Source of the DNA: Alphaproteobacteria bacterium
Lineage (GTDB): Bacteria > Pseudomonadota > Alphaproteobacteria > Rhizobiales > JAKIUO01
Assembly: GCA_024280895.1 (NCBI GenBank)
Contig: JAJRPI010000056.1
Location: 29,314 to 93,313, forward strand
DNA: 64,000 nucleotides
Direction: 5' to 3'
The translations under genes and the position numbers were made by a program. The notes beneath the pieces are model-generated. The model saw only the letters and a program-made list of their open reading frames with translations, was not told the DNA's origin and searched no databases. This document shows, piece by piece, positions 23,973 through 37,784 of the stretch; position 1 is the first letter of the stretch, and each line of letters begins with the position of its first letter.

Positions 23973-25676
23973 TCACCTGAGCAATTGCAGCAAATTCAGC
24001 AATAGCAAAATTAGCGCTGTGATTTTCCAAAATGATACCGGGTTGCGCTGCAGCAGGGGTTGGCTGGCCACTTCTAGACTAGCCGGGTTTGGCTTTTCCA
24101 GATCAGTTAAAAATTGTGACATTAGCGAATAACGCTTGCTCTGCTGCCTGGCAACCGCTTTGCCAAGCGCCCATGAGACATGGCGCGGGATGTTATTATT
24201 GTGCTCATGGGCTGGTGTCAGGGGCAGTTTTGCCACATCTTTCTTGCTCGCAAAGCCTTTGCCATAGGGGTGCTTGCCCGTCAGCATTTCATAGGTGATG
24301 ACCCCAAGGGAATAGAGGTCTGACCCGCTGGTTGGTTTTTGGCCCAATAGATATTCTGGTGCGCTATAGTCCCTTGTTCCCAGCAATTCGGGGAGTTTGT
24401 GGGCACCCTCGACTTCTTGCAGGCCGGCGACGCGCGTAGAGCCAAAATCGATGATTTTAACTGTGCCATGCTGGTCGATGAGGATATTGTCGGGTTTTAA
24501 ATCCTGATGGATCATTTCCTTGCGATGAAAAGCCCGTAACCCCATGGCGATCTGGCTGACAATTTCGCGCACTTCAACGATGCCGGGTTGCGGGTGGTCA
24601 TGTATCCATTGTGTGAGGGTCTGGCCTTCTACATAATCCAGAACCGTATAGAGGAATTTGCGTGATCGCCCCTTGTGGCGCACCTTCAAGACATGGGGGC
24701 TGTCAATTTGCGAACCGATCCATTCTTCGCGGGTGAATAATTCTATATAGGCGGGATCGTCTTCGAAATTGACGGACGGTGTTTTGAGCACCACGCGCTC
24801 ATTTGTTTTGACGTCCACCGCCAGATATACCTGTGACCGTGACGATAGATAAAGATCGCGCTCAATGCGAAAGCCGTCCATTACCATGCCGGGCTCGAGT
24901 TCAGGGGGGAAGGGGCGATCGGTCAGTTTTTGCAGATGAGCTTCTTCCGAGAGGGTGCCTGGATCATCGATGCGCACGATCTGACATGACAGATTGTCAC
25001 CACTGCCAGCTTCATGGGCAGCGTCAGTAAGTGCCTTGGCAGCCGTCTCCAGATTGTCATGCTCAAGAACAAGTTTGCGGATCTCACCATCGCGCAAAAA
25101 GTCATGCACGCCATCAGTGGAAAACAGCAAGATGTCCCCAGCCTGCAAAGGCCTGGAGTGATAATCGACTTCCAGTGCCGGGTCGATGCCAAAGGCTCGC
25201 GAGAGCATGTCGCGTCCACGCGATAAATGCACGCGGTGATCTCTGGTTAATTGGCGCAATGTGCGGCCGCGCAACAGATAGATGCGGCTGTCACCGGCAT
25301 GGAAAATATGGGCCATGGCCCCCTTGAGCACGAGCCCTGAAAAGGTTGTGACCATGGCGCGGTCAGAGGTGTATTGCGCCTGACCTTGCGAATAGAGCCA
25401 GCGATTGACCGCCGTCAGGACGCGGCTGACAGATGTTTTGACGGTCCAGCTTTCATGGGTGCAGTAATAGTCCATGAGAAAGGATTTGACGAGGGTTTCG
25501 GAGGCTTCCTTGCCAGCTTCAGAGGTGCTCATGCCATCGGCAATGGCCATGGCAATCCCTTTGCTTTCGAGCAGGGCGCGGTCTGGCACGATGATGCCAT
25601 AGCTGTCATCATTGCGCTCTTTGCGACCCTTCGTAGAATGAAGGCCAATGGTGATTTTAGGGCCGTTTGTCATCAA
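23973..25676 (-). CDS. Bifunctional PP2C-type phosphatase / Ser-Thr protein kinase with a C-terminal TM helix
   Basis: N-terminal PP2C motifs (RNDDSYGI, AIADGMS, DGV). Kinase motifs (VVLKTP, HQDLKPDNILI, DFGSTR, APE). C-terminal WKITALILLLLNLLQLL. Confidence 0.85.
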   Translation of the reverse strand: MMTNGPKITIGLHSTKGRKERNDDSYGIIVPDRALLESKGIAMAIADGMSTSEAGKEASETLVKSFLMDYYCTHESWTVKTSVSRVLTAVNRWLYSQGQAQYTSDRAMVTTFSGLVLKGAMAHIFHAGDSRIYLLRGRTLRQLTRDHRVHLSRGRDMLSRAFGIDPALEVDYHSRPLQAGDILLFSTDGVHDFLRDGEIRKLVLEHDNLETAAKALTDAAHEAGSGDNLSCQIVRIDDPGTLSEEAHLQKLTDRPFPPELEPGMVMDGFRIERDLYLSSRSQVYLAVDVKTNERVVLKTPSVNFEDDPAYIELFTREEWIGSQIDSPHVLKVRHKGRSRKFLYTVLDYVEGQTLTQWIHDHPQPGIVEVREIVSQIAMGLRAFHRKEMIHQDLKPDNILIDQHGTVKIIDFGSTRVAGLQEVEGAHKLPELLGTRDYSAPEYLLGQKPTSGSDLYSLGVITYEMLTGKHPYGKGFASKKDVAKLPLTPAHEHNNNIPRHVSWALGKAVARQQSKRYSLMSQFLTDLEKPNPASLEVASQPLLQRNPVSFWKITALILLLLNLLQLLR

Positions 25677-25689
25677 CTACCATTTCTCT

Positions 25690-27171
25690 TTAACTAACAT
25701 CAATCATCTCGACCGTGCCATCGGGCAGCACCTCTGCCATTTGACCACTTGGTTCATCAAGAAAGAACTGCACTGCAAGTAGTGTGACAATGGCCGCCCC
25801 GGCAATGGTCAAAAAGAATATTTTAGGAGCGACAAATGACAAAACGGTCAAGAAGATAACACCGCCGACATTGCCATAGGCCCCAACCATGCCAGCGATC
25901 TGGCCTGTCATGCGTCGCCGGATCAAGGGCACCATGCCAAATATTGCCCCCGAGCCAGCCTGACCCAGAAACGAGCATATCATGGTAATGCCTACAACCA
26001 GAGGCAGCCAAAAGGCGCTGGTGACCTGTGAGAGCACAAGATAGCCTACCACCATCCCCGCCAGCAGTACCGACAAGGTTTTTTTGCGCCCGAAGTGATC
26101 GCTGACCAGACCGCCGCCGGGGCGCGCGATCAAATTGGTAAACGCGAAGGCGGAGGCCAGTAGACCCGCTGTGATCAAGTCCAGCTCGAACACATCGGTA
26201 TAATAGAGCGGCAGCATGGAAACCACAGCCAGTTCTGATCCAAATGTCACCATATAGGCAAGATCAAGCACGGCCACCTGTTTGAAGGAATAACGCTCGA
26301 TTGCAGGCACGCTGTTTGCGAATATATGGCCGTTTATTTTATATATCTGCGCGATTTGCAGGCCATAGAGCGCCAGTAAAAGCGCATAGATTGCGTAGGT
26401 TGCACCAATGCCCAGCAGGTTCATATTGGCGGGGGATAATTTCCACGCCAGAACAGCCAGTGCCAGAAAAATCGGAGCCTGCATGAGGCAGGATAAGAAA
26501 AAATCGCCGGGACTGGAGATCTCCATCGCACCAACTTTTTTGGGTTTGAAATAGGTCGAGCCCTTTGGGGTATCGGTGACCGAGAAAAAATAGATGACCC
26601 CATAGATAAGCGCAATGAGGCCGGTTATGGCCACTGCATAGCGCCAGCCATCATCGCCGCCAATCCACAGGGCGATCATCGGCAGGCTGATGGCAGCCCC
26701 AGCTGAGCCAAAATTGCCCCAGCCGCCGTAAATCCCTTGCGCGAGGCCGGTTTGTTTGGCGGGAAACCACTCGGAGATCATGCGGATGCCAATGACAAAG
26801 CCAGCGCCAGCAAAGCCCAGTAAAAAGCGGGTCAGCGCCAGCGTCTGGAAATCCTTGGCCAGAGCAAACATGAAGCATAAAAAGCTGGAGATAATCAGCA
26901 GCGAGGAGAAGGTGTTTCTGGGGCCGAACCGGTCTACCAGCATGCCAATGATCACGCGGGCGGGGATGGTCAGTGCCAGATTGAGGATCAGCAGGGTTTT
27001 TACTTCTTGTGAGGACAGGCCAAGGGTCTCGCGGATCGAGCCGAGCAATGGCGCCATGTTGAACCAGACCAAAAAGCTGATAAAAAAGGCCATCCAGGTG
27101 TAATGCAGTATTTGAATATTGGGCCGCTTGAGCGCAAGCAGATTGAGGCTTTGAGCGGTTTGTTGTGACAT
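25690..27171 (-). CDS. narK: MFS nitrate/nitrite transporter (NNP family, NarK/NasA/NrtP type)
   Basis: 493 aa, about 12 TM helices. NNP-like Gly-rich motifs (GFAGAGFVIG, GGWGNFG, VGAYGNVGG). Sits in a nas context. Confidence 0.88.
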   Translation of the reverse strand: MSQQTAQSLNLLALKRPNIQILHYTWMAFFISFLVWFNMAPLLGSIRETLGLSSQEVKTLLILNLALTIPARVIIGMLVDRFGPRNTFSSLLIISSFLCFMFALAKDFQTLALTRFLLGFAGAGFVIGIRMISEWFPAKQTGLAQGIYGGWGNFGSAGAAISLPMIALWIGGDDGWRYAVAITGLIALIYGVIYFFSVTDTPKGSTYFKPKKVGAMEISSPGDFFLSCLMQAPIFLALAVLAWKLSPANMNLLGIGATYAIYALLLALYGLQIAQIYKINGHIFANSVPAIERYSFKQVAVLDLAYMVTFGSELAVVSMLPLYYTDVFELDLITAGLLASAFAFTNLIARPGGGLVSDHFGRKKTLSVLLAGMVVGYLVLSQVTSAFWLPLVVGITMICSFLGQAGSGAIFGMVPLIRRRMTGQIAGMVGAYGNVGGVIFLTVLSFVAPKIFFLTIAGAAIVTLLAVQFFLDEPSGQMAEVLPDGTVEMIDVS

Positions 27172-27531: not shown

Positions 27532-27561
27532 AATTCATTAACGAACAGGTTTAAGACCGAT

Positions 27562-27591
27562 GCCTTGCTGAGTGCCAAGGTCAATTTTTTA
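27562..27591 (+). terminator. Candidate leader attenuator hairpin plus T-run in the nirB 5' leader
   Basis: gCCTTGctgagtgcCAAGGt followed by caaTTTTTTa. The stem is only 5-6 bp, so this is weak. Confidence 0.25.
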
Positions 27592-27666
27592 TCGTTGAAA
27601 CAGGAGCTGCGGCAGGTCTCGATAAGAGGCCGGTGGGGTCTGAAACAGCCACATGAAGGGCAAGAA

Positions 27667-30111
27667 ATGGCAAGAGAAAAGCTAGTTGTGATTGGCAATG
27701 GAATGGCAGGGATGCGCTGCGTCGAGGAGTTGCTGGAACGCGCCCGCGATCACTATGACATCACGGTGTTTGGCGATGAGCCCTATGGTAATTACAACCG
27801 CATTTTACTGTCACCGGTGCTGGCAGGCGAAAAAACCATTGATGAAATCATGCTCAATGATGAAGCCTGGTATGCTGAAAATGACATTACGCTCATTCAT
27901 GGGACCGGTAAGCGCGTTGAAGAAATCCGCCGCGACCGCAAAGTTGTGATCACGCAAGATGGCCTTGAACAGCCCTATGATCGCTTGTTGATCGCCACGG
28001 GCTCCAAGCCGTTCATGCTGCCTTTGCCGGGTGCTGATCTTGACGGGGTCATCGCCTTTCGCGACATCAAGGATGTGGACACCATGTTGGCGGCCGCTCA
28101 AACCTATAAGAGCGCCGTTGTCATTGGCGGGGGTCTGCTGGGCCTTGAAGCGGCCAATGGCCTGATGAAAAACGGCATGAGCGTTACCGTTATTCATCTG
28201 CTTGACAGCTTGATGGAGATGCAACTGGATGATGCTGCCGCCAGCATGCTTAAAGCCTCGCTCATAGAGCGCGGCCTCAAATTCGAGATGAAAGCCAGCA
28301 CCAAAGAGCTGGTCGGTACGTCACGCGTTGAAAAAGTTGTGCTGGATAATGGCAGTGAAATCGACGCTGACCTCGTTGTCATGGCGGTGGGTATTCGCCC
28401 CAATATCGAGCTGGCGCAAAAGGCCGGTATCCATTGTGAGCGCGGCATTGTTGTCGATGACACCATGCTGACTTTTGATCCAGCCGTTCATGCGATTGGC
28501 GAGTGTGCCCAGCATCGCGGTATTGCCTATGGTCTGGTGGCGCCTTTGTTCGAGCAAGCCAAGGTTTGTGCTAATCATCTGGCGCAAAAAGCGTTTGCCT
28601 CTTACAAGGGGTCGACCACTTCAACCAAGCTTAAAGTCACCGGAATTGATCTGTTTTCCGCCGGAGATTTCAAAGGCGGTGATGATTGCGAAGAGATTGT
28701 GCTGGAAGATAAAAAAGCAGGTATCTATAAAAAGATTGTGCTTGAAAATGACAAGGTCAAGGGCGCCGTTCTTTATGGCGACACCATCGATGGGGCCTGG
28801 TATTTCCAGCTAATGCGCGAGAAGTCTGACGTCTCGCAAATGCGCCGCTCGCTGATGTTTGGGCAAAGTCATGTGGGCGATAGTGGCACCGGCGGCATGG
28901 ATGTTATGAGCATGTCCGATGACACAGAAGTGTGTGGTTGTAACGGCGTTAGCAAGGGCGATATTACCTACGCCATTTCCAGTAAGGGATTGTTTACGCT
29001 CGATGATGTTCGGTCTCATACCAAGGCGTCTTCGTCGTGCGGCACCTGCACCGGGCTGGTTGAGCAGCTTTTGATGGCGACGCTGGGTTCTGACTATTCA
29101 GCTTCTCCCAGCGAGAAAGCCATGTGCAAATGCACGGATCATTCTCATGACCGGGTGCGTCGTGCTATTGTAGACAATCAGATCAAAACCATTCCAGAGG
29201 TTATGAAATTCCTCGATTGGTCAACGCCTGATGGCTGCGCATCTTGTCGCCCCGCACTCAACTATTATCTGCTTTGTGCCTGGCCGAGCGATTATGTGGA
29301 CGATGGCCAGTCCAGATTTATCAATGAGCGCGCTCATGGCAATATCCAAAAAGATGGCAGTTATTCTGTGGTGCCGCGCATGTTTGGCGGGCTTTGCACC
29401 GCTGATGATTTGCGGACCATTGCGGATGTTTCTGATAAATATGGCGTACCTGAAATGAAGGTGACGGGCGGGCAACGCATTGATTTGTTTGGCGTTAAAA
29501 AAGAAGACCTCCCCGATATGTGGGCCGATTTATCGGACGCTGGATTTGTATCGGGGCATGCTTATGGCAAGGCCATGCGTACTTGTAAAACCTGTGCTGG
29601 TGCCAACTGGTGCCGCTTTGGTACGCAGGATAGTACAGGACTTGGCGTCAAGATCGAAGAGCTTTCCTGGGGCTCGTGGATGCCGCACAAGTTCAAATTT
29701 GCCGTATCGGGTTGCCCGCGCAATTGCGCCGAGGCGACCATCAAGGACTTTGGCGTGGTGTGCGTCGATAGTGGCTATGAGCTGCATGTCGGCGGCAATG
29801 GCGGCATCAAGGTGCGCGTGACGGACTTTTTGACCAAGGTTGAAACGGAAGAAGATGTGCTGGAATGGGCAGGGGCCTTTTGTCAGTATTACCGCGAAGA
29901 GGCGCATTATCTGGAGCGTACGGCTCCCTGGATTGAACGCATTGGTCTGGCTCCTATCAAGGAAAAGCTGGAAGATGACAAGATCCGTCTTGAGCTTTAT
30001 GAGCGCTTTATCATCTCCCAGAAATCTGCGCAAATCGACCCGTGGAAAGAGCGCTCCAAGGGGGAGCTGACCAAAGAATTTTTACCGATCAAGGATCTGG
30101 TGGCAGGATGA
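27667..30111 (+). CDS. nirB: NAD(P)H-dependent assimilatory nitrite reductase large subunit
   Basis: Start MAREKLVVIGNGMAGMRCVEELL. BFD-like 2Fe-2S (CGCNG...CGTCTG). Siroheme/4Fe-4S site (CKTCAGANWCRFG ... SGCPRNCAE). Confidence 0.95.
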   Translation: MAREKLVVIGNGMAGMRCVEELLERARDHYDITVFGDEPYGNYNRILLSPVLAGEKTIDEIMLNDEAWYAENDITLIHGTGKRVEEIRRDRKVVITQDGLEQPYDRLLIATGSKPFMLPLPGADLDGVIAFRDIKDVDTMLAAAQTYKSAVVIGGGLLGLEAANGLMKNGMSVTVIHLLDSLMEMQLDDAAASMLKASLIERGLKFEMKASTKELVGTSRVEKVVLDNGSEIDADLVVMAVGIRPNIELAQKAGIHCERGIVVDDTMLTFDPAVHAIGECAQHRGIAYGLVAPLFEQAKVCANHLAQKAFASYKGSTTSTKLKVTGIDLFSAGDFKGGDDCEEIVLEDKKAGIYKKIVLENDKVKGAVLYGDTIDGAWYFQLMREKSDVSQMRRSLMFGQSHVGDSGTGGMDVMSMSDDTEVCGCNGVSKGDITYAISSKGLFTLDDVRSHTKASSSCGTCTGLVEQLLMATLGSDYSASPSEKAMCKCTDHSHDRVRRAIVDNQIKTIPEVMKFLDWSTPDGCASCRPALNYYLLCAWPSDYVDDGQSRFINERAHGNIQKDGSYSVVPRMFGGLCTADDLRTIADVSDKYGVPEMKVTGGQRIDLFGVKKEDLPDMWADLSDAGFVSGHAYGKAMRTCKTCAGANWCRFGTQDSTGLGVKIEELSWGSWMPHKFKFAVSGCPRNCAEATIKDFGVVCVDSGYELHVGGNGGIKVRVTDFLTKVETEEDVLEWAGAFCQYYREEAHYLERTAPWIERIGLAPIKEKLEDDKIRLELYERFIISQKSAQIDPWKERSKGELTKEFLPIKDLVAG

Positions 30112-30452
30112 ATAATATGAACAGCAAACATTGGATTGAAATTGGCCCCCTCAAGGACATTGCCGTGAAGGGCGCGCGCATCGTCAAGCATGCGGGCGGT
30201 GATATCGCCATTTTTCGCACCAGTGAAGACGAGGTCTACGCATTGGATAATAAATGCCCGCACAAAGGCGGCCCCTTGTCCGATGGCATCGTGCATGGTT
30301 GCCGCATCACCTGTCCCTTGCATAACTGGGTGCTGGAATTAAAGACCGGCAAGGCTGTCGCTCCCGATGAAGGGGAAGCCAAGACCTGGCCCGTCAAAGT
30401 TGAAGATGGCCTTATTTATCTGGGCACCGAAGATGATGTGGCGTTCGCGTAA
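30108..30452 (+). CDS. nirD: Nitrite reductase small subunit (Rieske-like)
   Basis: ATGA overlap with the nirB stop. CPHKGGPLSDG...CPLHNW. Confidence 0.9.
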   Translation: MNNMNSKHWIEIGPLKDIAVKGARIVKHAGGDIAIFRTSEDEVYALDNKCPHKGGPLSDGIVHGCRITCPLHNWVLELKTGKAVAPDEGEAKTWPVKVEDGLIYLGTEDDVAFA

Positions 30453-30478
30453 GCAGTGGTAAAAAGAGAAAGACACAG

Positions 30479-32683
30479 ATGTTATTTGGACGCGCAAAAA
30501 AGAACCCAGTGAAGATTGCCGACAAGGGGATCGTCGATTGGAAATATGCCACTTGCGGCTATTGCTCCACCGGCTGCTCCATTGAGGTTGGTCTGAACAA
30601 AGAGGGCAAGGCTGTGAGCTCGCGCGGCGTTGGTGGCGCGGATGTCAATCGCGGCAAGCTATGTCTCAAGGGCATTTTTGAACATGAATTATTCGACAGC
30701 GATGGGCGCGGCACCACCCCCATGATGCGCGATCATTATCATGAGGATTTTGCTCCAACGAATTGGGACACGGCACTGGATCGTACCCATGACGAGATCC
30801 GCCGCATTCAGGAAAAATATGGTCGCGACAGCTTCGCCATTATCTCCACCGGTCAGATGCTCACCGAAGAGTTTTACACGCTTGGCAAGCTCACCCGTGG
30901 TCTCATTGGCACCAATAATTATGACGGTAATACAACGCTTTGCATGAGTTCGGCCGTTTCTGGTTACAAGCGCTCCTTTGGCTCTGACGGTCCTCCTGGC
31001 TGTTATGAGGATTTTGAACATACCAATTGCCTCGTTGCATGGGGTTCCAATCTGTCCGAGCAGCATCCAATCATTTACTGGCGTATGAAAGACGCGCAGG
31101 AAAAACGCCCGTTCCCGCTCATTGTCATTGATCCGCGCGTCACCATGCTGGCCCAAAATGCCGATATGCACCTACCCATTACACCCGGCACCGATGTGGT
31201 TCTGCAAAATGCCTTGATGCACGTCATCTTGAAAGAGGGACTGGAGGACCGGCGCTATATCGACGCCAATACCAATGGCATCGCGCAGCTTGAAGCTGAG
31301 GTCGCCAAATATGATCCCGTCACCGCAAGTAAAATCTGCGGTATTGATGAGGACACCATCCAGACGGTGGCACGCCTGTTCGCCAAGGCCGGTGCGGCCA
31401 TGCAGATCTGGACAATGGGCATCAATCAAAGCACGCATGGATCAGATGGCGTGGTGGGCATCAATAATCTGGCGCTGATCACTGGCAATATCGGCAAACC
31501 GGGCGGCACTTCGCTTTCGATCACTGGTCAATGTAACGCAATGGGCACCAGAGAATGGTCGTCCTGCTCGGGATTGCCGGGATATCGGGCTTTGGAAAAT
31601 CCAGAGGACCGCGAGGAGATAGGTAAATTCTGGGGCTGTGATCCAGAGTTCTTTCCCAAAAAGCGCGGGCTTTATCAAACCGATATCTATCCCGCTATCG
31701 AAACCGGCCAGATCAAGGGCCTATGGTTGATCGCCACCAATCCCTTGAGCTCTTTGCCCAATACGGCGCGCATCAGAAAAAGTATGGAGCGACTGGAATT
31801 TTGTGTGGTGCAAGATTGCTATAAGGATACCGAAAGCGCGCAATATGCCCATGTCTATCTGCCAGCTGGTACCTGGGCGGAAAAAGAAGGGGTGATGACC
31901 AATACCGAGCGCCGGGTCAATATCGTCAAACCCATCATGAAGCCCCCCGGGGACGCCAAGCCCGATCTGTGGATTTTTAACCAGATGGCCAAGCGCTTCA
32001 ATCTGGATAAAAAGCTCAGCTTTCCTGAAAAAGCCGCTGATATTTTTCTGGAGATGACCAGGCTTTCCAAGGGGCGGCTGTCCGACATCACTGGTATGAA
32101 CCATGAAATGATCGAGAAAAACCGCGGCGTGCAATGGCCTTATACAGCGGAGCAGGCGGCTTCAGGCGAGGCACCGCCCAAAGGTGGCAAGCGGATCTAT
32201 ACCAAAGATGGAACCTTCAGTTATAAGGACGGCCGCGCCAAGCTGATCCCGCTGCCCTTTATTGATAATAATGAAGTGCCGGATGAAAAATTCCCGTTCT
32301 GGCTTAATACCGGCCGCTTGATCGAGCACTGGCACGGCCGCACCAAGACCGGCAAAGTGGCCGATAATAATAAATATGTGCCTATTCCCTTTATCGAGAT
32401 TAATCCAGATGCGGCTAGAGAGCTTGGCGTCCGGACCGGGGAATATGTGCGGCTGGTGTCGCGTCGTTCTGACGCCATTGTCATGGTCACGCCAACCGGG
32501 CGCGTCCCAAAAAACATGGTGTTCCTGCCATTCCATTTTTTCGATTGCGCCAACCGCTTGACCCTTGGCCTGCTCGACCCTCATTCGCGCCAGCCAGCCT
32601 ATAAGCAATCGGCCATCCGCATCGAGAAATTACCCGATCAGGCTGAGGCGGCAAAAGCCAGCATGGAAATGAGAGAATTTTGA
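30479..32683 (+). CDS. nasA: Assimilatory nitrate reductase-like Mo-bisPGD catalytic subunit (no Tat leader)
   Basis: N-terminal 4Fe-4S ligands CGYCSTGC...LCLKG. Molybdopterin oxidoreductase body. C-terminal FLPFHFFDCANRLTLGLLDPHSRQPAYKQSAIRIEK. No RR signal. Confidence 0.8.
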   Translation: MLFGRAKKNPVKIADKGIVDWKYATCGYCSTGCSIEVGLNKEGKAVSSRGVGGADVNRGKLCLKGIFEHELFDSDGRGTTPMMRDHYHEDFAPTNWDTALDRTHDEIRRIQEKYGRDSFAIISTGQMLTEEFYTLGKLTRGLIGTNNYDGNTTLCMSSAVSGYKRSFGSDGPPGCYEDFEHTNCLVAWGSNLSEQHPIIYWRMKDAQEKRPFPLIVIDPRVTMLAQNADMHLPITPGTDVVLQNALMHVILKEGLEDRRYIDANTNGIAQLEAEVAKYDPVTASKICGIDEDTIQTVARLFAKAGAAMQIWTMGINQSTHGSDGVVGINNLALITGNIGKPGGTSLSITGQCNAMGTREWSSCSGLPGYRALENPEDREEIGKFWGCDPEFFPKKRGLYQTDIYPAIETGQIKGLWLIATNPLSSLPNTARIRKSMERLEFCVVQDCYKDTESAQYAHVYLPAGTWAEKEGVMTNTERRVNIVKPIMKPPGDAKPDLWIFNQMAKRFNLDKKLSFPEKAADIFLEMTRLSKGRLSDITGMNHEMIEKNRGVQWPYTAEQAASGEAPPKGGKRIYTKDGTFSYKDGRAKLIPLPFIDNNEVPDEKFPFWLNTGRLIEHWHGRTKTGKVADNNKYVPIPFIEINPDAARELGVRTGEYVRLVSRRSDAIVMVTPTGRVPKNMVFLPFHFFDCANRLTLGLLDPHSRQPAYKQSAIRIEKLPDQAEAAKASMEMREF

Positions 32684-33858
32684 TGTTTAAAACACGAAGC
32701 GACGAACCAAAATACGCTCATTTATGGGATAAAGAAACCAAGCTTGCCAATATTTATGGCGATACGATCGACCTTGTCGAGGGCAGCGATCTGCCAGCCG
32801 ATCAAAGCCTCAATATTAATGGCGATGGTTCGGTCGGCGACAATCCCAACCGCAACAAGCAACACGGTTTTTATTTCACCGCTGATAATTGCATTGGTTG
32901 CCATGCCTGCGAAGCGGCCTGTTCTGAAAAAAACGACAATCCCTCACATATCGCTTTTCGCTCGGTTGGTTTTGTGGAAAGCGGTAGCTATCCAGATTAC
33001 AACCGCCTCAATATCAGCATGGCTTGCAATCACTGCGATGATCCCGTTTGCCTGAAGGGTTGCCCAACGCGGGCCTACACGAAATTTGCCGAATATGGCG
33101 CGGTGCTGCAAGATCCTGACATTTGTTTTGGCTGCGGCTATTGCACCTGGGTCTGTCCCTATAACGCCCCGCAGCTTGATCCGGTTAAAGGCGAAGTGAG
33201 CAAATGCAATATGTGTGTTGATCGCTTGGAAGTCGGTCTTAAACCAGCTTGCGTTTCCGCTTGCCTTGGTAATGCGCTGGACTTTGGCGTCATCGAGAAT
33301 GTTCCTGAGCGCCGCGAGCAGGCCAAGGTGCAAATTCCCGGGTTTCCTGATCCAGGGATCAGCCATCCCAATATCCGCTTTTCTCTGTCGCGCACGCTGC
33401 AGAGGGTGTTCACCCGTCCCGACAGCGCGCCGCTCAAATATGTACGTGAGGGAGATGGTTTTAATCCTGTGGTCAATGAGGCGGCAGGCGTTGGCGAGCG
33501 CCAATGGAATCTCAAATCTCTGCTCACCAGCCATGAAAATGCGCATATTGTTTTCACGCTCTGCACGCAGGCGGTGATGGGGGCCTTTCTTTTGGTGCTG
33601 CTGGGTGGCTGGCTCGATCAGCCCTTATATACAACGGAGTTGTTTGTGCCTGTGATGGCCGCGCTGGTCGGCCTGTTGGGCTTTGGTCTGGCGGTGCTCA
33701 ATCTGCATCTGGGTAAGCCCATGCGGTTTTATCGCGGTTTCAACAATTGGCGCCTGTCGCCGGTGAGCCGCGAAATCGCCGGTGTGTCGCTGTTTTTTAC
33801 AGCCCTTTCCGGCTATGCCTTTTCGGCCTTCTGGGATCGCAATATCTGGGTATGCTGA
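32683..33858 (+). CDS. DmsB/NrfC-like 4x[4Fe-4S] polyferredoxin fused to about 3 TM helices of a DmsC-like anchor
   Basis: TGATG overlap with nasA. Four Cys clusters (CIGCHACEAAC; CNHCDDPVCLKGCP; CFGCGYCTWVCP; CNMC..ACVSAC). C-terminal helices follow (IVFTLCTQAVMGAFLLVLL, FVPVMAALVGLLGFGLAVL, IAGVSLFFTALSGYAFSAF). Confidence 0.75.
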   Translation: MFKTRSDEPKYAHLWDKETKLANIYGDTIDLVEGSDLPADQSLNINGDGSVGDNPNRNKQHGFYFTADNCIGCHACEAACSEKNDNPSHIAFRSVGFVESGSYPDYNRLNISMACNHCDDPVCLKGCPTRAYTKFAEYGAVLQDPDICFGCGYCTWVCPYNAPQLDPVKGEVSKCNMCVDRLEVGLKPACVSACLGNALDFGVIENVPERREQAKVQIPGFPDPGISHPNIRFSLSRTLQRVFTRPDSAPLKYVREGDGFNPVVNEAAGVGERQWNLKSLLTSHENAHIVFTLCTQAVMGAFLLVLLGGWLDQPLYTTELFVPVMAALVGLLGFGLAVLNLHLGKPMRFYRGFNNWRLSPVSREIAGVSLFFTALSGYAFSAFWDRNIWVC

Positions 33859-34499
33859 GTGCCCATAGCGTTGACCTGCTGATTGTTTTGCCAGGACTGG
33901 GGGCGGTTCTGGGGGCGGTTGTTGGTCTTTATTACATGATCAAACTCTATCTTATTCCAGCGCGGCCTTTCTGGAACCACTGGCAAACAGCCAGCAGTTT
34001 TGTCGGCTCTGCCATCACCCTTGGCATGCTTTTGTTAAGCAGTCTGACGGTTCTGGCTCAAGGGTTTCATATGGAGGTGAGAGCGGTGGCGCTGATATTA
34101 CTCGCCGGGCTAATGCTGGAAGCTATCGGCCTTGCTTTCCATGCACGCACCATGAAGCGGCAAGGCGGCGAAGGGGCGGCGTCGCATTTCGAACAAGTGA
34201 CGCGCTATGGCTTCCCCTATTTGTTACGTAATTTGTTGCTGGGGGGAAGCATTGTCTCCCTTGTCGGTGTCGCCCTATTCGGTTTGCCATTGGGAGGGGC
34301 AGGCATCGCCATTACCTTGCTGCTTGCTCTGTCTATTCTAGCAAGCGCCATTATCGGGCGCGCCCTGTTCTATGTGCTCGTCATTCCAACGACCATGCCG
34401 GGGGGCTTCTTCTGGCGCAATAAGGGCTTTGAGGAGCACGCAATTGAAACGGGTCTGGCTGATAAAATTCACGCCGGAATTGTTACGGGCAAGCATTGA
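33852..34499 (+). CDS. DmsC/YnfH-like membrane anchor, C-terminal portion (about 5 TM)
   Basis: ATGCTGA overlap with the previous gene. Very hydrophobic 215-aa product. It could be a separate coupled gene or the 3' part of one frameshifted gene. Confidence 0.6.
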   Translation: MLSAHSVDLLIVLPGLGAVLGAVVGLYYMIKLYLIPARPFWNHWQTASSFVGSAITLGMLLLSSLTVLAQGFHMEVRAVALILLAGLMLEAIGLAFHARTMKRQGGEGAASHFEQVTRYGFPYLLRNLLLGGSIVSLVGVALFGLPLGGAGIAITLLLALSILASAIIGRALFYVLVIPTTMPGGFFWRNKGFEEHAIETGLADKIHAGIVTGKH

Positions 34500-34527
34500 T
34501 CTAAGTTAATGAATGCGCTCGCCGCGC

Positions 34528-34810
34528 GGCGTCCTGTGCGGACAGCAGCAAGGGCGAGCCCTTGCAACCCTGTTTTGACTCTAAAGTTTGGCTTATGTGT
34601 AGGGTGTCAATAGCGATAGCGTATTGCACCGTTGCAGACTCAAATCGGTGCAATACGCTGCGCTATTGACACCCTACATTTTCGGAAACCTGCTCGTGGA
34701 TACGTAGCGATTTGTTGTTACGAGCTGATACGAACGAGAAAGCCCCTTTCACCCTCTTTAAAATGGGGATGAAAGGGGCTTGCCCTTTTCCGCTCGCCGC
34801 GTAGGCGATT
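34528..34810. repeat. Composite REP-like element, right copy (inverted), flanking the nas cluster
   Basis: 34528-34570 is the reverse complement of 23887-23929 (40/43 identical by my alignment). 34782-34810 is the reverse complement of 23759-23787 (27/29). The interior carries a 78-bp GTAGGGTG-type palindrome (34599-34676). Confidence 0.85.
34730..34781 (-). terminator. Candidate terminator hairpin downstream of fccB (part of the REP composite)
   Basis: Perfect 12-bp stem AAGCCCCTTTCA / TGAAAGGGGCTT (34740-34751 and 34770-34781). The minus strand is followed by TTCTCGTT. Confidence 0.4.
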
Positions 34811-34828
34811 AAATCTTACCTTATCGCA

Positions 34829-36109
34829 TCAAGTACCAAACATGTCTTTGGTGATGGCGTTGTACCAGCCAAAGAACTCTGCATAGGTTTGCTGGCGAAG
34901 CTGATCGCTTTCGCCGACCTTGGAGATCAGTTTGGACGTTGGCTCGATCTTGGTTTTACCAGCTTTATAGGTGGCACCGACCTTGATACCGTCATCAATG
35001 GCAAGGAAGCTCCAGCAGGTATTAGCATATTTGGCCGGGAAGGTCCGCGATCCAAGCAGTACACCGCGCACAGCCATGGCGCATGATTTGGCCTGCGAGT
35101 TGGCGGAGAACCCTGATTTTGGCATGGAAGCCGCAATACTCGTATCGCCGATCACATAGATATTAGGATCAACCGTTGATTGCATGCTGCCGGGTTTGAT
35201 TGGTGCCCATCCCGTTTTGTTGGTGAGGCCGGCATCTTTGGCAATGCGTCCACCGGTCATGGCAGGGATGACGCAACCAGCGTCTGCTTTGAAATTATCG
35301 AGACCGGTTTCGAATGTCATATTATCGGTATCGACGCGTTTTATTCCATCCAGCGATGACAGAGGATTCCATTCGATCATATCGCCATAATGACGTTTCC
35401 AACCGTCTTGGAATAGCGCCATTTTGGAGAATTTATCTTTGGGATCAAGAATGATGATCTTGGCTTTTGGATTGTGATATTTGAAATGATGCGCAATCAT
35501 CGAGACGCGCTCATATGGTCCTGGAGGACAGCGATACGGATTTGGCGGGGTCAGCATGACAAAGGTGCCGCCCTGTTTCATCGTGGTAACGCGGTTCTTG
35601 AGGAATTGTGCCTGCGTACCCGACTTCCAGGCATGCGGGAAAGTTCCAGAGCCAGAGACAGAATAGCCTGGCACGCTGTCATACTTAATATCGATGCCTG
35701 GTGAGACAATCAAGATATCGTAGGGAATGGAAGAGCCGCCACCAAGTACAACTTTTTTGCCGGCGCGATCAATGCTTGTTGCCCAGTCATGAACGACATT
35801 GATGCCGAACTTGGAGGCCAGCTTGTCATAGGAATGACCAATGCTTTCATATTTGCGGAAGCCGCCAATATAGAGATTTGAGAAGAAGCAGGTATAATAG
35901 CGTTTGGTCGGCTCCAGCAGAGTGACCTCTAGCTTGCCTTTGGAATCCTTGGCGAGATAACGCGCAACGGTCGCGCCGCCGGCTCCACCACCGATTACCA
36001 CAACTCTAGGTCTCCCAGCTCCAAACACGGCGCCAGTATTGGCGCTGAGCCCCAAAGTCAGGGCAGCAGCTCCTGTTAGTTTGCCGAATTGCCTTCGGTT
36101 CATTGTCAT
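34829..36109 (-). CDS. fccB: Flavocytochrome c sulfide dehydrogenase, flavoprotein subunit (FccB/SoxF type)
   Basis: Tat leader MTMNRRQFGKLTGAAALTLG. FAD motif VVVIGGGAGGATVARYL. FCSD-like body. Confidence 0.85.
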   Translation of the reverse strand: MTMNRRQFGKLTGAAALTLGLSANTGAVFGAGRPRVVVIGGGAGGATVARYLAKDSKGKLEVTLLEPTKRYYTCFFSNLYIGGFRKYESIGHSYDKLASKFGINVVHDWATSIDRAGKKVVLGGGSSIPYDILIVSPGIDIKYDSVPGYSVSGSGTFPHAWKSGTQAQFLKNRVTTMKQGGTFVMLTPPNPYRCPPGPYERVSMIAHHFKYHNPKAKIIILDPKDKFSKMALFQDGWKRHYGDMIEWNPLSSLDGIKRVDTDNMTFETGLDNFKADAGCVIPAMTGGRIAKDAGLTNKTGWAPIKPGSMQSTVDPNIYVIGDTSIAASMPKSGFSANSQAKSCAMAVRGVLLGSRTFPAKYANTCWSFLAIDDGIKVGATYKAGKTKIEPTSKLISKVGESDQLRQQTYAEFFGWYNAITKDMFGT

Positions 36110-36178
36110 CTCATTACTCCCTGTTTTGCGCCTCAATAGTCCATAGACTATTGATCGTTTTATCTGTTGCCTGTGAGG

Positions 36179-36499
36179 CTACTCAGTCGGCTCTACTGGT
36201 TTAATCGTTGCAAAATAAGCGGCAAGCGCTTCCATTTCTTCTGTTGTCATCGGCTCGGTTATCATCCGCATGACCGGATTTTCCCGTTCTTTGGCCTGGT
36301 AGGATTGCAAAGTCTTGACAAAGGCTTTGGTGTCCCAGCCAACAATTGAGGGGATCCCATTATCAACGCCGGTCAACTGATGGCATGTGACACAGGCCGT
36401 TGACAGATATTCCCCATACGCAATATCGCCTTCGCCATGTGCAGATATTGACCCGATCATCAGTGCTGCAAGTAACGTGAATAGGCGAACCATTGGCAT
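36179..36499 (-). CDS. Monoheme c-type cytochrome (FccA/SoxE-like partner)
   Basis: Signal peptide. Single CVTCH heme motif. Located 70 bp upstream of fccB on the same strand. Confidence 0.7.
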   Translation of the reverse strand: MPMVRLFTLLAALMIGSISAHGEGDIAYGEYLSTACVTCHQLTGVDNGIPSIVGWDTKAFVKTLQSYQAKERENPVMRMITEPMTTEEMEALAAYFATIKPVEPTE

Positions 36500-36578: not shown

Positions 36579-37784
36579 TTATTGCGATCCCGCATCTCCG
36601 GATTGACGCAGAGCATAGCTGATCAGGATCAAGCGCAGCTTGTCGATGACGGTGGCCATATAGCCAAGCTCGTCTTTGCGTTCCGTGCCATAAAACTCGA
36701 TATCGAGATCGCCATCAATGAATTTATCCAGCGTGTACGAAATCTTGTTGATCGGTCCCAGCACATGAGAGAACAATACATAGGCAATCAGCAGCATCAG
36801 TAGCCCGAGACCAACCGCTGAGCCAAGAAAAATATTCTTAGAAAGCAGTGAGTTGCTTTGCAGATGTTCGGTGGTGGTGCGTTTAGAGGCCTCGATGGCG
36901 TTGCTATATTCCGCGTGCAGGATCTGCAGGGCGGACAAGGCGGGCTTGTCATCAATTTCGACGCGCAAATTGATTTCTTCAGGAGATTTGTGAAGGCCGG
37001 CCATTTTTATAGCCTGATCAAGATTATCGCGATATTTGTTGACGACTTCCATCAAGCCGTTGAGCGCCAGGTTTTCGGCAGGAACCAGCGAGAAATTACG
37101 ATATTTGTCTACTGCTACCTGAATGTCAGCGATCGATTTTTTGACCTTTTCGACCCGCTCGCTTTTCTGGCGGAGCAGGAAGTTTTTGAACTCGTGGATC
37201 ATGCCGCCATAACCAAGGGCGCGGTGAATTTCGCCCAATAGTTCAATTTTTGTCTGTTCGTCCGATTGTTCAAGACGGTGAGATTTCACAGCTTTACGCA
37301 GGACGGCCAGACCGCTCATGGCGGGGGTGTCGTCGACCTTGACCACCTTATCGATTTGCCGTGAGCTGTAGCCTTCATCGACCATGGTACTGGCTTCTTG
37401 CAGATTGATGGCATAGGCATCAACCACTTTTTTGATCTGTCGAAGGGCGGAGCGCTCGCCAGGAGTGATGGAGGCTTCGGTATATTGTTCGATGGAGGCG
37501 TGTACCTTGCCGACGGAGACGCGAATGCGGGCAGGCAGCTTGTTGTCCTTGGTGATGACGTAATTCTTGAAACGATGGATCATCTGACCGTAACCAAGAG
37601 CTTTTTCGATGGAGTTAAAAGCGCTGACGCGGGTGGAACTGATATCTTGATATTTGGTCCAGAACTTTTCGGCCTGATCGGAATTTCCCGATATTGTCAT
37701 GGCACTATAGATGACAAACGCACCATAGATTGCAATGAATGCAAGTATGGCGAGAGAGAGTGCTTTGATGGACATATTCTTCAT
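36579..37784 (-). CDS. Membrane sensor-like protein: tandem duplicated extracytoplasmic module + TM + HAMP, no output domain
   Basis: TM1 ALSLAILAFIAIYGAFVIY. Two roughly 135-aa repeats each carry ALGYG(Q/G)MIH(R/E)FKN(Y/F). TM2, then HAMP (LGPINKISYTLDKFIDGDLDIEF..RKDELGYMATVIDKLR). The protein ends about 15 aa later. Confidence 0.7.
   Translation of the reverse strand: MKNMSIKALSLAILAFIAIYGAFVIYSAMTISGNSDQAEKFWTKYQDISSTRVSAFNSIEKALGYGQMIHRFKNYVITKDNKLPARIRVSVGKVHASIEQYTEASITPGERSALRQIKKVVDAYAINLQEASTMVDEGYSSRQIDKVVKVDDTPAMSGLAVLRKAVKSHRLEQSDEQTKIELLGEIHRALGYGGMIHEFKNFLLRQKSERVEKVKKSIADIQVAVDKYRNFSLVPAENLALNGLMEVVNKYRDNLDQAIKMAGLHKSPEEINLRVEIDDKPALSALQILHAEYSNAIEASKRTTTEHLQSNSLLSKNIFLGSAVGLGLLMLLIAYVLFSHVLGPINKISYTLDKFIDGDLDIEFYGTERKDELGYMATVIDKLRLILISYALRQSGDAGSQ

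What the first reader, a model, noticed from the sequence alone, without database searches (positions are those of the whole stretch)
30479..34499. Nas-type molybdoenzyme followed by a polyferredoxin-membrane-anchor fusion and a split DmsC-like anchor: candidate quinol-linked cytoplasmic nitrate reductase
The nasA-like catalytic subunit has no Tat leader and is translationally coupled (TGATG) to a DmsB/NrfC-like protein with four complete [4Fe-4S] Cys motifs. That protein also lacks a Tat leader, and its C-terminus continues into about 3 TM helices. The next gene overlaps by 7 nt (ATGCTGA) and supplies about 5 more TM helices. Together these resemble one 8-TM DmsC/NrfD-type quinol-interacting anchor split across two polypeptides. 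The characterised assimilatory systems I know (Klebsiella NasCA, Paracoccus NasBGC, cyanobacterial NarB) are soluble and use NAD(P)H or ferredoxin, with no membrane subunit. An A-B/C'-C'' complex facing the cytoplasm would tie nitrate assimilation to the quinone pool. It could also be a different oxyanion reductase recruited into the nas operon. Siroheme synthase (cobA), commonly the last nas gene, is absent here.
Basis: partly seen in the sequence, partly recalled or inferred. Interest (0 to 1): 0.75.

Follow-up and report, generated by a model that had tools for sequence, protein, structure and literature searches.

The report
Membrane-anchored assimilatory nitrate reductase, frameshifted anchor
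The window holds a nitrate-assimilation operon whose nitrate reductase is paired with one iron-sulfur protein fused to a quinol-type membrane anchor, a widespread pairing I found described nowhere in the literature I could search; the "split" anchor seen here comes from a single missing base.

Summary

The two-polypeptide anchor is not a design. Compared with an 87%-identical relative, the 1817-nt gene differs by one indel, a missing base next to a T run at about 33819. Adding one T restores a 605-aa protein. All 74 complete orthologues among 80 genomic loci are single ORFs.

The fusion and its pairing are real and old. A Nas-type gene lies directly upstream in all 61 loci with enough DNA. The pairing persists in nitrate-assimilation clusters down to 31-36% identity.

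Charge bias (24 versus 0.9 K+R) and the absence of Tat signals put the FeS domain and the conserved DmsC/SoeC quinol-site residues on the cytoplasmic side.

Best reading (inferred, not assayed): a cytoplasm-facing quinol:nitrate oxidoreductase serving assimilation. It is built like SoeABC, does NarGHI's chemistry, and uses a Nas catalytic subunit.

Ten literature searches found no description of it.

The parts
23973..25676 (-). PP2C phosphatase / Ser-Thr protein kinase fusion. It is often found beside the nitrate transporter in related loci.
   Evidence: Pfam Pkinase 2.8e-41 and PP2C_2 1.1e-09. Homologues lie in many related loci.
25690..27171 (-). MFS transporter, presumed NarK/NrtP-type nitrate importer.
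   Evidence: Pfam MFS_1 1.2e-40. It is conserved next to nirB and the Nas-like gene in many loci. Substrate is inferred from synteny.
27667..30111 (+). nirB, NAD(P)H nitrite reductase large subunit.
   Evidence: NCBIfam TIGR02374 scores 936 bits against a cutoff of 578. The ATG at 27667 comes from the alignment.
30108..30452 (+). nirD, Rieske-type small subunit. Its start overlaps the nirB stop.
   Evidence: NCBIfam TIGR02378 scores 100 bits against a cutoff of 74.65.
30479..32683 (+). Nas/Nap-type Mo-bisMGD catalytic subunit (734 aa). It is cytoplasmic and lacks a C-terminal 2Fe-2S domain.
   Evidence: Three Pfam domains. Best PDB match is D. desulfuricans NapA 2NAP, 437 bits over the full length, with the Cys ligand and FS0 cysteines aligned. 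There is no RR motif. It falls below all NCBIfam equivalog cutoffs.
32683..34499 (+). One gene for a four-cluster FeS protein fused to an 8-TM DmsC/SoeC-type anchor. It is interrupted here by a -1 frameshift; the restored product is 605 aa.
   Evidence: Inserting one T gives 605 aa, collinear with P0122 (605 aa) and with E. coli DmsB followed by DmsC. The AF2 model of orthologue P0002 has pLDDT 89.6. Its FeS half matches PsrB, ArrB and FdnH, and its membrane half matches ActC.
32683..33858 (+). 5' fragment as it reads in the window: N-terminal extension, 4x[4Fe-4S] domain, about 75-aa linker, and TM1-3 carrying the quinol-site motif HLGKP...SPVSREI.
33819..33823 (+). Frameshift site. One base is missing at or next to a T run: window GCCTTTTCGG, L001 GCCTTTTTCGG, L081 GCTTTTTTCGG.
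   Evidence: It is the only indel between the window and L081 across the 1817-nt gene. A 5-locus alignment agrees.
33852..34499 (+). 3' fragment (ATG-initiated ORF; the homologous frame begins about 33824): TM4-8 and the conserved cytoplasmic tail VIPTTMPGGFFWRNKGF.
   Evidence: Pfam DmsC profile 122-275. dN/dS against L081 is 0.139 in this frame. No Shine-Dalgarno sequence precedes the ATG. The ATG is ATA in L081.

Best explanation
This is a nitrate-assimilation operon (transporter, nirBD, nitrate reductase). Its Nas-type catalytic subunit works with a dedicated membrane partner. That partner is a single polypeptide: a DmsB-like domain with four [4Fe-4S] clusters, joined by a linker to an 8-helix DmsC/SoeC-type domain.

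The whole assembly faces the cytoplasm, so the anchor should be inverted relative to the periplasm-facing orientation reported for DmsC and PsrC, as proposed for SoeC.

The most likely mechanism runs as follows:
1. Quinol is oxidised at the conserved His/Ser/Ser/Glu site at the cytoplasmic end of TM2-TM3.
2. Electrons pass through the four clusters to the [4Fe-4S] cluster and Mo-bisMGD of the catalytic subunit.
3. Nitrate is reduced to nitrite, which NirBD then reduces with NAD(P)H.

This would spare NAD(P)H or ferredoxin for the first step, which suits sulfur oxidisers and methanotrophs.

**Shown:** gene identities, the fusion, cofactor ligands, conserved synteny, the charge bias, and the frameshift.
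**Inferred:** complex formation, the quinol donor, and the direction of electron flow.

In this window the anchor gene carries a one-base deletion. It is either an assembly error or a very recent mutation. It is not an evolved two-subunit design.

Sub-confidences:
- Architecture and nitrate role: about 0.9.
- Frameshift rather than design: about 0.95.
- Quinol as donor: about 0.55.
For: **Frameshift**
- One indel in 1817 nt against L081, and one added T restores 605 aa.
- 73 of 74 complete orthologous genes are single ORFs of at least 590 aa, and one is 587 aa. None is split.
- dN/dS after the break is 0.139 in the restored frame.
- A sister MAG has a similar 1-nt deletion in nirB.

**Pairing**
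- A Nas-like gene lies directly upstream in all 61 loci with at least 2.3 kb of upstream DNA. The gap is mostly -1 to 300 nt.
- The same pairing occurs in nitrate-assimilation clusters at 49%, 40%, 36%, 32% and 31% identity, with either NirBD or NirA, NrtABCD or MFS transporters, P-II, MoeA/MobA and CysG.
- All partner enzymes have the C-M-(A/S)-(S/T)-A-V motif, no RR motif, and no C-terminal 2Fe-2S domain.

**Cofactors**
- Nearly all of the 16 Cys are invariant or >=90% conserved across 88 fused proteins of 25-77% identity.

**Quinol site**
- The equivalents of DmsC His65 (invariant), Ser82, Ser85 and Glu87 (>=90%) are conserved.
- These are the residues listed for DmsC and SoeC, and they have mutational support in DmsC (PMC8076601).

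**Orientation**
- K+R counts are 24.0 on the FeS side against 0.9 on the other side in 40 close members, and 19.6 against 1.5 in 88 diverse members.
- None of the 88 has a hydrophobic, Tat-like N-terminus; one matches the RRx-hydrophobic pattern only.

**Fold**
- pLDDT is 89.6. The FeS half matches PsrB (TM-score 0.77), ArrB and FdnH. The membrane half matches ActC and PsrC.
Against: - No biochemical or genetic data exist for any member.
- Complex formation between the two proteins was not modelled.
- NirBD sits next door. In Paracoccus, NirB/NirD-like proteins feed NADH electrons to NasC (my knowledge), so an NADH route is not excluded.
- Methylobacter-type loci also carry a canonical NADH reductase plus a NasA with a 2Fe-2S domain in the same cluster. 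The membrane-linked enzyme is therefore not always the only candidate.
- The positive-inside rule is a prediction, not a measurement.
- The frameshift means the system may be inactive in this particular organism.
- The literature I could search is limited to open-access papers. The 2025 Richardson review of nitrate reductase classes could not be read.
Confidence: 0.6

Rival explanations
1. The fusion protein is only a membrane tether or electron wire. Electrons for nitrate reduction come from NAD(P)H through NirB/NirD, or from a soluble ferredoxin, enter the FeS domain, and the DmsC-like domain does no quinol chemistry.
For: - nirBD lies immediately upstream and is translationally coupled.
- Some remote clusters contain a CysJ-like FAD/NAD reductase (L087).
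- A 2026 paper, following a 2025 review, describes cytoplasmic Cys-type nitrate reductases as using ferredoxin or NAD(P)H rather than quinols (PMC13381448).
Against: - The quinol-site residues of DmsC and SoeC are conserved across fused proteins down to 25% identity. That is hard to explain for a passive anchor.
- The pairing persists whether the cluster has NirBD or ferredoxin-type NirA.
- Where a canonical NADH reductase is present, it comes with its own NasA paralogue carrying a 2Fe-2S domain.
Confidence: 0.17
2. The split is a genuine two-subunit design or a programmed frameshift. FeS plus TM1-3 and TM4-8 are made separately (or by ribosomal slippage) and assemble into one anchor.
For: - An ATG at 33852 overlaps the upstream stop (ATGCTGA).
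- The break falls in the TM3-TM4 loop.
- The downstream frame is intact and under purifying selection.
Against: - None of 74 complete orthologues is split.
- The closest relatives read straight through with one more base in the T run.
- The ATG is ATA in L081.
- No Shine-Dalgarno sequence precedes the ATG.
- There is no X XXY YYZ slippery heptamer in the sequence at the site.
Confidence: 0.05
3. The molybdoenzyme is not a nitrate reductase. It acts on another substrate (formate, sulfite or another oxyanion) and passes electrons to or from quinone, as SoeABC does.
For: - The highest-scoring NCBIfam model is formate dehydrogenase alpha, TIGR01591, at 546 bits.
- All nitrate-reductase equivalog cutoffs are missed.
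- The SoeABC-like architecture normally runs toward quinone reduction (PMC8076601).
Against: - TIGR01591 is also below its cutoff of 666.
- The Mo ligand context is Cys-Met (LCMSSAV), as in NapA, not Sec/Cys-His.
- The best solved relative is NapA.
- The gene pair lies with nitrate transporters and nitrite reductases in every informative locus. In most of them it is the only nitrate reductase candidate within the DNA held, up to about 8 kb on each side.
Confidence: 0.05

Closest known systems
SoeABC sulfite:quinone oxidoreductase (Allochromatium vinosum, Aquifex aeolicus)
   Same: - It is a Mo-bisPGD subunit without export signal, plus a four-cluster protein, plus an 8-TM DmsC/NrfD-type anchor.
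- All are proposed to face the cytoplasm, with the anchor inverted (PMC8076601).
- The quinone-site residues listed for SoeC (His65, Ser82, Ser85, Glu87) are all conserved here.
   Different: - The catalytic subunit here is Nas/Nap-type, not SoeA.
- B and C are one polypeptide here.
- Electron flow is expected from quinol to substrate, the reverse of Soe.
- The genomic context is nitrate assimilation, not sulfur oxidation.
DmsABC / PsrABC (periplasm-facing complex iron-sulfur molybdoenzymes)
   Same: - The fusion is collinear with E. coli DmsB followed by DmsC over its full length.
- It has a PsrB-like and PsrC/ActC-like fold.
- It has 16 Cys and the quinol-site His and Glu.
   Different: - There is no Tat signal on any subunit.
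- There is strong K+R bias on the FeS side (24 versus 0.9), whereas E. coli DmsC shows none in the same columns (5 versus 5).
- B and C are fused.
- The close family has extra conserved N-terminal (60 aa) and C-terminal tails.
- The catalytic subunit belongs to a different clade.
NarGHI respiratory nitrate reductase
   Same: The proposed overall reaction and sidedness match: quinol oxidised in the membrane and nitrate reduced in the cytoplasm, through a four-cluster subunit. NarH is a structural match to the FeS domain.
   Different: - NarG uses an Asp ligand and is only remotely related (36.8 bits to TIGR01580).
- NarI is a dihaem cytochrome b that oxidises quinol on the periplasmic side, so it is electrogenic. 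Here the site lies on the cytoplasmic side and no haem-binding domain is detected.
- The context here is assimilatory.
Soluble assimilatory nitrate reductases (NarB of cyanobacteria, NasA/NasC of Klebsiella, Bacillus, Paracoccus)
   Same: - The catalytic subunit is cytoplasmic with a Cys ligand.
- It sits in an operon with a nitrite reductase and a nitrate transporter.
- It matches the NasC and haloarchaeal NasA profiles over their full length.
   Different: - Its scores are far below both equivalog cutoffs (475 versus 1100, 460 versus 1000).
- It has no C-terminal 2Fe-2S domain and no NADH reductase subunit of its own. The canonical paralogue NasA2 in L023 has both.
- It is always paired with a membrane FeS protein.
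NapAGH (periplasmic nitrate reductase with NapG four-cluster protein and NapH quinol dehydrogenase)
   Same: A Nap/Nas-clade catalytic subunit is fed from quinol through a four-cluster ferredoxin-like protein and a membrane subunit (my knowledge of Wolinella and E. coli Nap).
   Different: - NapA and NapG are exported by Tat.
- NapH is an unrelated 4-TM protein with cytoplasmic FeS clusters.
- NapG and NapH are not fused.

Membership tests
Nas/NarB/Nap clade of Mo-bisMGD nitrate reductases | N-terminal [4Fe-4S] (FS0) motif C-x2-C-x3-C...C | tested here: met
   CGYCSTGCS...LCLKG aligns to the FS0 cysteines of NapA 2NAP. Pfam Molybdop_Fe4S4 scores 2.2e-09.
Nas/NarB/Nap clade of Mo-bisMGD nitrate reductases | Cys ligand to Mo in a C-M-(A/S)-S-A context, not Sec/Cys-His as in formate dehydrogenases | tested here: met
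   LCMSSAV aligns with LCMASAV (Cys140) of D. desulfuricans NapA. The same motif occurs in partners of remote fusions.
Assimilatory (cytoplasmic) nitrate reductase | No Tat signal; cytoplasmic location | tested here: met
   There is no RR motif, and 25 residues precede the first Cys. The match to the NapA profile starts at position 35, so the signal region is absent.
Assimilatory (cytoplasmic) nitrate reductase | Operon association with an assimilatory nitrite reductase and a nitrate transporter | tested here: met
   The window has an MFS transporter, nirB and nirD. The association is conserved across the 80 loci and in remote clusters.
NCBIfam equivalogs NasC (NF047855), haloarchaeal NasA (NF041323), NapA (NF010055/TIGR01706) | Score at or above the curated cutoff | tested here: not met
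   Scores are 475 versus 1100, 460 versus 1000, 416 versus 904, and 401 versus 931. It is not a member of any curated equivalog.
Assimilatory nitrate reductase | Nitrate reductase activity required for growth on nitrate | not testable with these tools
   This needs enzyme assays and mutants.
Four-cluster proteins of complex iron-sulfur molybdoenzymes (DmsB/PsrB/NarH type) | Four Cys groups (16 Cys) binding 4x[4Fe-4S]; FCP fold | tested here: met
   All 16 Cys are invariant in 39 close members, and nearly all are invariant or >=90% conserved in 88 diverse members. Foldseek matches ArrB, FdnH and PsrB (TM-score 0.77). TIGR02951 DmsB scores 160.8 against a cutoff of 214, so it is not the DmsB equivalog.
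DmsC family membrane anchor (PF04976) | Pfam score above gathering; 8 TM helices | tested here: met
   The window fragments score 43.5 and 25.1 bits against 22.3, and together cover profile positions 6-95 and 122-275. The intact orthologue L078 scores 56.2 bits over profile 6-274. Eight TM helices appear in hydropathy and in the AF2 model.
DmsC family membrane anchor (PF04976) | Quinol-site residues His65 and Glu87 (with Ser82) | tested here: met
   H342, S359 and E364 (restored numbering) align to them. They are invariant in 39 sequences and invariant or >=90% conserved in 88. The residue list comes from PMC8076601.
DmsC family membrane anchor (PF04976) | Termini and partner FeS subunit on the periplasmic (P) side, reached by Tat export | tested here: not met
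   There is no Tat signal. K+R counts are 24.0 on the FeS side against 0.9 opposite, which predicts a cytoplasmic FeS domain and an inverted anchor. This is a prediction only.
SoeABC | Cytoplasm-facing A, B and C subunits with an inverted DmsC-type anchor | tested here: met
   Orientation is as predicted above. The SoeC quinone-site list, including Ser85, is conserved.
SoeABC | SoeA-type catalytic subunit; separate B and C polypeptides; sulfur-oxidation context | tested here: not met
   The catalytic subunit is Nap/Nas-type. B and C are fused. The context is nitrate assimilation. I did not compare the sequence directly with a SoeA.
NarGHI | Asp-ligated NarG, NarH, dihaem NarI | tested here: not met
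   The narG model scores only 36.8 bits over a short stretch. The ligand is Cys. The anchor is DmsC-type.

The most novel reading that the evidence does not exclude
A third, widespread class of bacterial assimilatory nitrate reductase takes its electrons from the quinol pool rather than from ferredoxin or NAD(P)H. It does so through a cytoplasm-facing four-cluster protein fused to an inverted DmsC/SoeC-type anchor. On this reading it is the main nitrate-assimilating enzyme of gammaproteobacterial methanotrophs, many sulfur oxidisers and marine hydrocarbon degraders. It could even conserve energy if the NrfD-like domain carries the quinol protons outward.
Probability: 0.45. Interest if true: 0.75.

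Novelty: new variant of a known kind. Interest (0 to 1): 0.62.

Why it matters
Reviews I could read divide cytoplasmic nitrate reductases by donor into ferredoxin/flavodoxin and NAD(P)H types. They reserve quinols for the respiratory enzymes (PMC13381448).

A quinol-fed assimilatory enzyme would change several things:
- The cost of growth on nitrate is modelled for methanotrophs, which are routinely grown on nitrate media, and for chemolithoautotrophs that must make NADH by reverse electron flow. Both models would need revision.
- **Known architectures.** It would add a second cytoplasm-facing member, after SoeABC, to the family of molybdoenzymes with NrfD/DmsC anchors.
- **Annotation.** Current names for the anchor include 'DMSO reductase subunit B', 'DmsC/YnfH anchor' and even 'aspartate carbamoyltransferase'.

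At least 562 of about 185,000 species-level genomes carry the fusion.

For this window specifically, the split is a one-base artefact or lesion and should not be read as biology.

Tried and rejected
- **Programmed frameshift or designed split.** Rejected: no slippery heptamer, no Shine-Dalgarno sequence, an unconserved ATG, and no split among 74 complete orthologues.
- **Formate dehydrogenase reading** (top NCBIfam hit). Rejected on the cutoff, the active-site motif and synteny.
- **Identity with the 'FqoABC' complex of Calisto and Pereira.** Rejected: that complex has FdnGH-type subunits and a Tyr/Asp quinone site, in other phyla.
- **Tat hitch-hiking.** No subunit in the operon carries a signal.
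- **First AF2 run.** With 39 close sequences it gave pLDDT below 35 for the FeS half, so only its membrane half was used. A deeper 88-sequence alignment fixed this.
- **Exact lookup of the 391-aa product.** It found no contig. The source record stays unidentified beyond a 185-kb NCBI contig.
- **Rfam scan of the window.** No hits.
- **Promoter and terminator scan of 27100-34900.** Counts were at or below shuffle expectation, so it was uninformative.
- **Ten literature searches.** Terms included NasA, DmsB, DmsC, quinol, membrane anchor, SoeABC and NC-type. No paper describes this pairing. Papers read in detail did not mention it either.
- **Richardson 2025 review.** It is not held in the library.

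Full report
**1. What is in the window**

Between 23.9 and 34.5 kb lies a nitrate-assimilation cluster.
- On the minus strand are a PP2C/Ser-Thr kinase fusion (23973-25676) and an MFS transporter (25690-27171).
- On the plus strand are nirB (27667-30111; TIGR02374, 936 bits against a cutoff of 578) and nirD (30108-30452; TIGR02378, 100 bits against 74.65).
- Next comes a 734-aa molybdoenzyme (30479-32683), followed by two overlapping ORFs (32683-33858 and 33852-34499).
- The first of the two ORFs has four complete Cys groups, a Fer4_11 hit, and a tail matching DmsC profile positions 6-95. The second matches DmsC positions 122-275.

**2. The split anchor is a one-base frameshift**

- A database search with the 391-aa product returned hundreds of close homologues (66-87% identity). 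Apart from a few shorter, apparently partial sequences, all are single chains of about 600-660 aa with both the FeS and DmsC domains. Only the window's own protein is 391 aa.
- Its 90%-identity cluster contains an intact 605-aa protein, P0122.
- Against the contig that encodes P0122 (L081, 87% nucleotide identity), the 1817-nt gene differs by exactly one indel. A base is missing at or next to a T run: window GCCTTTTCGG, L001 GCCTTTTTCGG, L081 GCTTTTTTCGG.
- Inserting one T yields 605 aa reading ...SGYAFFGLLGSQYLGML.... P0122 reads ...CGYAFFGLLGPQYLGIL....
- Of the 80 related genomic loci, 74 hold a complete gene. 73 of these are single ORFs of at least 590 aa and one is 587 aa. None is split.
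- dN/dS after the break, in the restored frame, is 0.139, against 0.10 for the whole gene. The lesion is therefore recent or artefactual.
- The sister assembly L081 has its own 1-nt deletion in nirB. Indel errors in this type of assembly are plausible.
- The ATG that starts the second ORF is ATA in L081, and no Shine-Dalgarno sequence precedes it.

I conclude the split is not an evolved feature. Whether it is an assembly error or a true recent mutation needs the raw reads.

**3. The fusion and its pairing with a Nas-type enzyme are real, conserved and old**

- In all 61 loci with at least 2.3 kb of upstream DNA, a Nas-like gene lies directly upstream of the fusion. Including partial cases, this makes 73 loci. 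The gap is mostly -1 to 300 nt. A nirB homologue is usually nearby, often with nirD, the MFS transporter and the kinase.
- Carriers include cultured organisms: Methylomicrobium lacus (complete genome, L078: kinase, nirB, nirD, PhzF-like, Nas-like, fusion), a Methylomonas multispecies entry, Sulfuricella denitrificans skB26 and Methyloglobulus morosus KoM1. There are also many Methylococcales, Cycloclasticus, Thiotrichaceae, Thiobacillus, Porticoccaceae and Hyphomicrobiaceae MAGs.
- A search of 1.84 billion cluster representatives found many more distant fused proteins of about 440-590 aa at 31-50% identity.
- I looked up six of these. Five were informative, and all five sit next to a Nas-type enzyme, usually inside a nitrate-assimilation cluster:
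  - L083 (49% identity): P-II, P-II, MFS, Mo enzyme, fusion, NirB, NirD, MobA, MoeA and NrtA-like.
  - L085 (40%): Nas-like gene, then fusion.
  - L086 (36%): CysG, NirA, fusion and Mo enzyme.
  - L087 (32%): NrtABCD, GAF, fusion, Mo enzyme, NirA and a CysJ-like reductase.
  - L088 (31%): fusion, then Mo enzyme.
- All partner enzymes have the Cys ligand in C-M-(A/S)-(S/T)-A-V. None has an RR motif or a C-terminal 2Fe-2S domain.

**4. Identity of the catalytic subunit**

- The best solved relative is the monomeric NapA of Desulfovibrio desulfuricans (2NAP, 437 bits, full length).
- The FS0 cysteines and the Mo ligand Cys are aligned: LCMSSAV against LCMASAV.
- It matches the NasC, haloarchaeal NasA and NapA profiles over their whole length, but far below the cutoffs. 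The top hit, formate dehydrogenase alpha, is also below its cutoff.
- It therefore belongs to the Nas/Nap clade but to none of the curated equivalogs.
- In most loci it is the only nitrate reductase candidate beside a nitrite reductase and a nitrate transporter. This argues for nitrate as substrate.
- Methylobacter-type loci (L013, L023, L055) are an exception. Immediately downstream they also carry a 405-aa NirB-like NADH reductase and an 880-aa NasA paralogue (35% identity) with a BFD-type 2Fe-2S domain, next to ntrBC. That looks like two nitrate reductases with different electron inputs.

**5. Anatomy and orientation of the fusion protein**

- It is collinear with E. coli DmsB followed by DmsC.
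- In the close family it has a 60-aa N-terminal extension. There is an about 75-aa linker and a conserved C-terminal tail, VIPTTMPGxFFW.NKGF.
- The 16 Cys are invariant in 39 close members. In 88 diverse members (25-77% identity), 12 are invariant and 4 are at least 90% conserved.
- DmsC His65 is invariant. Ser82, Ser85 and Glu87 are at least 90% conserved. These are the quinol-site residues listed for DmsC and SoeC, with mutational support in DmsC (PMC8076601).
- Hydropathy and a confident AlphaFold model of orthologue P0002 (pLDDT 89.6, pTM 0.90) give eight TM helices.
- The FeS half matches the beta subunits ArrB, FdnH, PsrB (TM-score 0.77), PcrB and NarH. The membrane half matches ActC and PsrC.
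- K+R counts are 24.0 on the side of the FeS domain (linker, loops 2-3, 4-5 and 6-7, and the tail) against 0.9 on the other side in 40 close members.
- In 88 diverse members the counts are 19.6 against 1.5, with no sequence reversed. No N-terminus has a hydrophobic, Tat-like region; one sequence matches the RRx-hydrophobic pattern only.
- E. coli DmsC shows no such bias in the same columns: 5 against 5.
- The FeS domain and the quinol site at the end of TM2 and in loop 2-3 are therefore predicted to lie on the cytoplasmic side. That implies an inverted anchor, as proposed for SoeC (PMC8076601).

**6. Mechanism**

- **Shown:** the parts, the cofactor ligands, the fusion, the pairing and the predicted sidedness.
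- **Inferred:** the FeS domain docks on the catalytic subunit as in DmsAB or PsrAB. Quinol is oxidised at the His/Ser/Ser/Glu site. Electrons run through four clusters to FS0 and Mo, and nitrate is reduced to nitrite in the cytoplasm.
- From established redox potentials, both ubiquinol and menaquinol can reduce nitrate (+420 to +433 mV).
- With both half-reactions on the same side, the step would be non-electrogenic, unless the NrfD-like domain conducts protons outward. That last point is speculative.
- The carriers seen are mainly sulfur oxidisers, methanotrophs and hydrocarbon degraders. This fits an enzyme that spares NAD(P)H, but that is an argument from plausibility.

I put about 0.55 on the quinol donor, about 0.9 on the architecture and nitrate role, and about 0.95 on the frameshift.

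**7. Rivals**

- A passive tether or wire, with NADH or ferredoxin as donor, is the main rival (0.17). The conserved quinol site, and the persistence of the pairing with either NirBD or NirA, argue against it.
- A designed split or a programmed frameshift (0.05) fits the data poorly.
- A non-nitrate substrate (0.05) also fits poorly.

**8. Comparison with what is known**

- The architecture is closest to SoeABC (cytoplasm-facing A, B and C with an inverted anchor).
- The proposed chemistry is that of NarGHI.
- The catalytic subunit is Nas/NarB-like.
- It fails defining features of each, so it is not a member of any:
  - Compared with SoeABC, it has a different A subunit and fused B and C.
  - Compared with NarGHI, it has a Cys rather than Asp ligand and no NarI.
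  - Compared with DmsABC, it has no Tat signal and the anchor is inverted.
  - Compared with the curated Nas equivalogs, its scores are far below the cutoffs.
- A 2021 survey of NrfD-type complexes does not list it.
- A 2023 phylogenomic survey of the molybdoenzyme superfamily lists the assimilatory nitrate reductases only as cytoplasmic enzymes and does not mention such a partner.
- A 2026 paper, following a 2025 review, states that cytoplasmic Cys-type nitrate reductases use low-potential donors rather than quinols.
- Ten full-text searches found nothing on this pairing.
- The library covers open-access papers only, and the 2025 review could not be read. Prior description elsewhere cannot be excluded.

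**9. Verdict**

The feature that made this locus look unusual, the split anchor, is a single-base frameshift. I rate it a new variant of a known kind, with interest 0.62.

Noticed in passing
window 33798-34341 versus L001 (JAJRQA010000165.1) about 9120-9675: Between the window and its close relative L001, the flanking genes are 96-97% identical in protein and the FeS half of the fusion has dN 0.037. The membrane half has dN 0.288 and dS 1.34, and about 540 nt have no blastn match. This suggests a mosaic or recombined membrane domain.
   Followed up: partly
L081 4771-7214 (GCA_024279115.1 JAJRRW010000143.1): nirB in this sister MAG is split into 512 and 302 aa by a one-base deletion (CAGAT-AAAACC). 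This suggests that single-base indels in conserved genes recur in these assemblies.
   Followed up: yes
L023 5729-13899; also L013, L055 and probably L033: Methylobacter-type loci carry two nitrate reductase systems in tandem. The first is the Nas-like gene with the fusion. The second is a 405-aa NirB-like NADH reductase with an 880-aa NasA paralogue that has a C-terminal BFD 2Fe-2S domain. In L023, ntrB and ntrC are adjacent.
   Followed up: partly
P0016 (AMK76629.1 / WP_062328316.1), P0071, P0104, P0107: Public records name the fusion protein 'aspartate carbamoyltransferase', 'anaerobic dimethyl sulfoxide reductase chain B' or 'DmsC/YnfH family anchor'. The first is a clear misannotation.
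   Followed up: no
window 34829-36499 (-): This is a flavocytochrome c sulfide dehydrogenase-like pair: a 435-aa FCSD flavoprotein with a Tat-like MNRRQFGKL leader, and a 106-aa cytochrome c. It lies convergent with the nas operon. It is conserved in the closest relatives L001 and L081 but was not detected in the other related loci.
   Followed up: no
window 23973-25676 (-): A single protein combines a PP2C phosphatase and a Ser/Thr kinase domain next to the nitrate transporter. Homologues recur in many related nas clusters, which suggests a conserved regulatory partner.
   Followed up: no
L078 4617-5528 (Methylomicrobium lacus): A PhzF-like gene (303 aa) sits between nirD and the Nas-like gene. 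Other methanotroph-type loci show a gap of similar size between their nirB homologue and the Nas-like gene. Its role there is unknown.
   Followed up: no
window 36579-37784 (-): A 401-aa membrane protein has only weak 4HB_MCP and HBM sensor-domain hits and no detected signalling domain. It could be a truncated or atypical chemoreceptor-like sensor.
   Followed up: no
restored fusion protein residues 1-60 and 566-605 (window 32683-32862 and about 34380-34499): A conserved 60-aa N-terminal extension is present only in the close family and absent from fusions at 49% identity or less. A C-terminal cytoplasmic tail, VIPTTMPGxFFW.NKGF, is strongly conserved in the close family and has no counterpart in E. 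coli DmsB or DmsC. Both are possible contact surfaces for the catalytic subunit.
   Followed up: no
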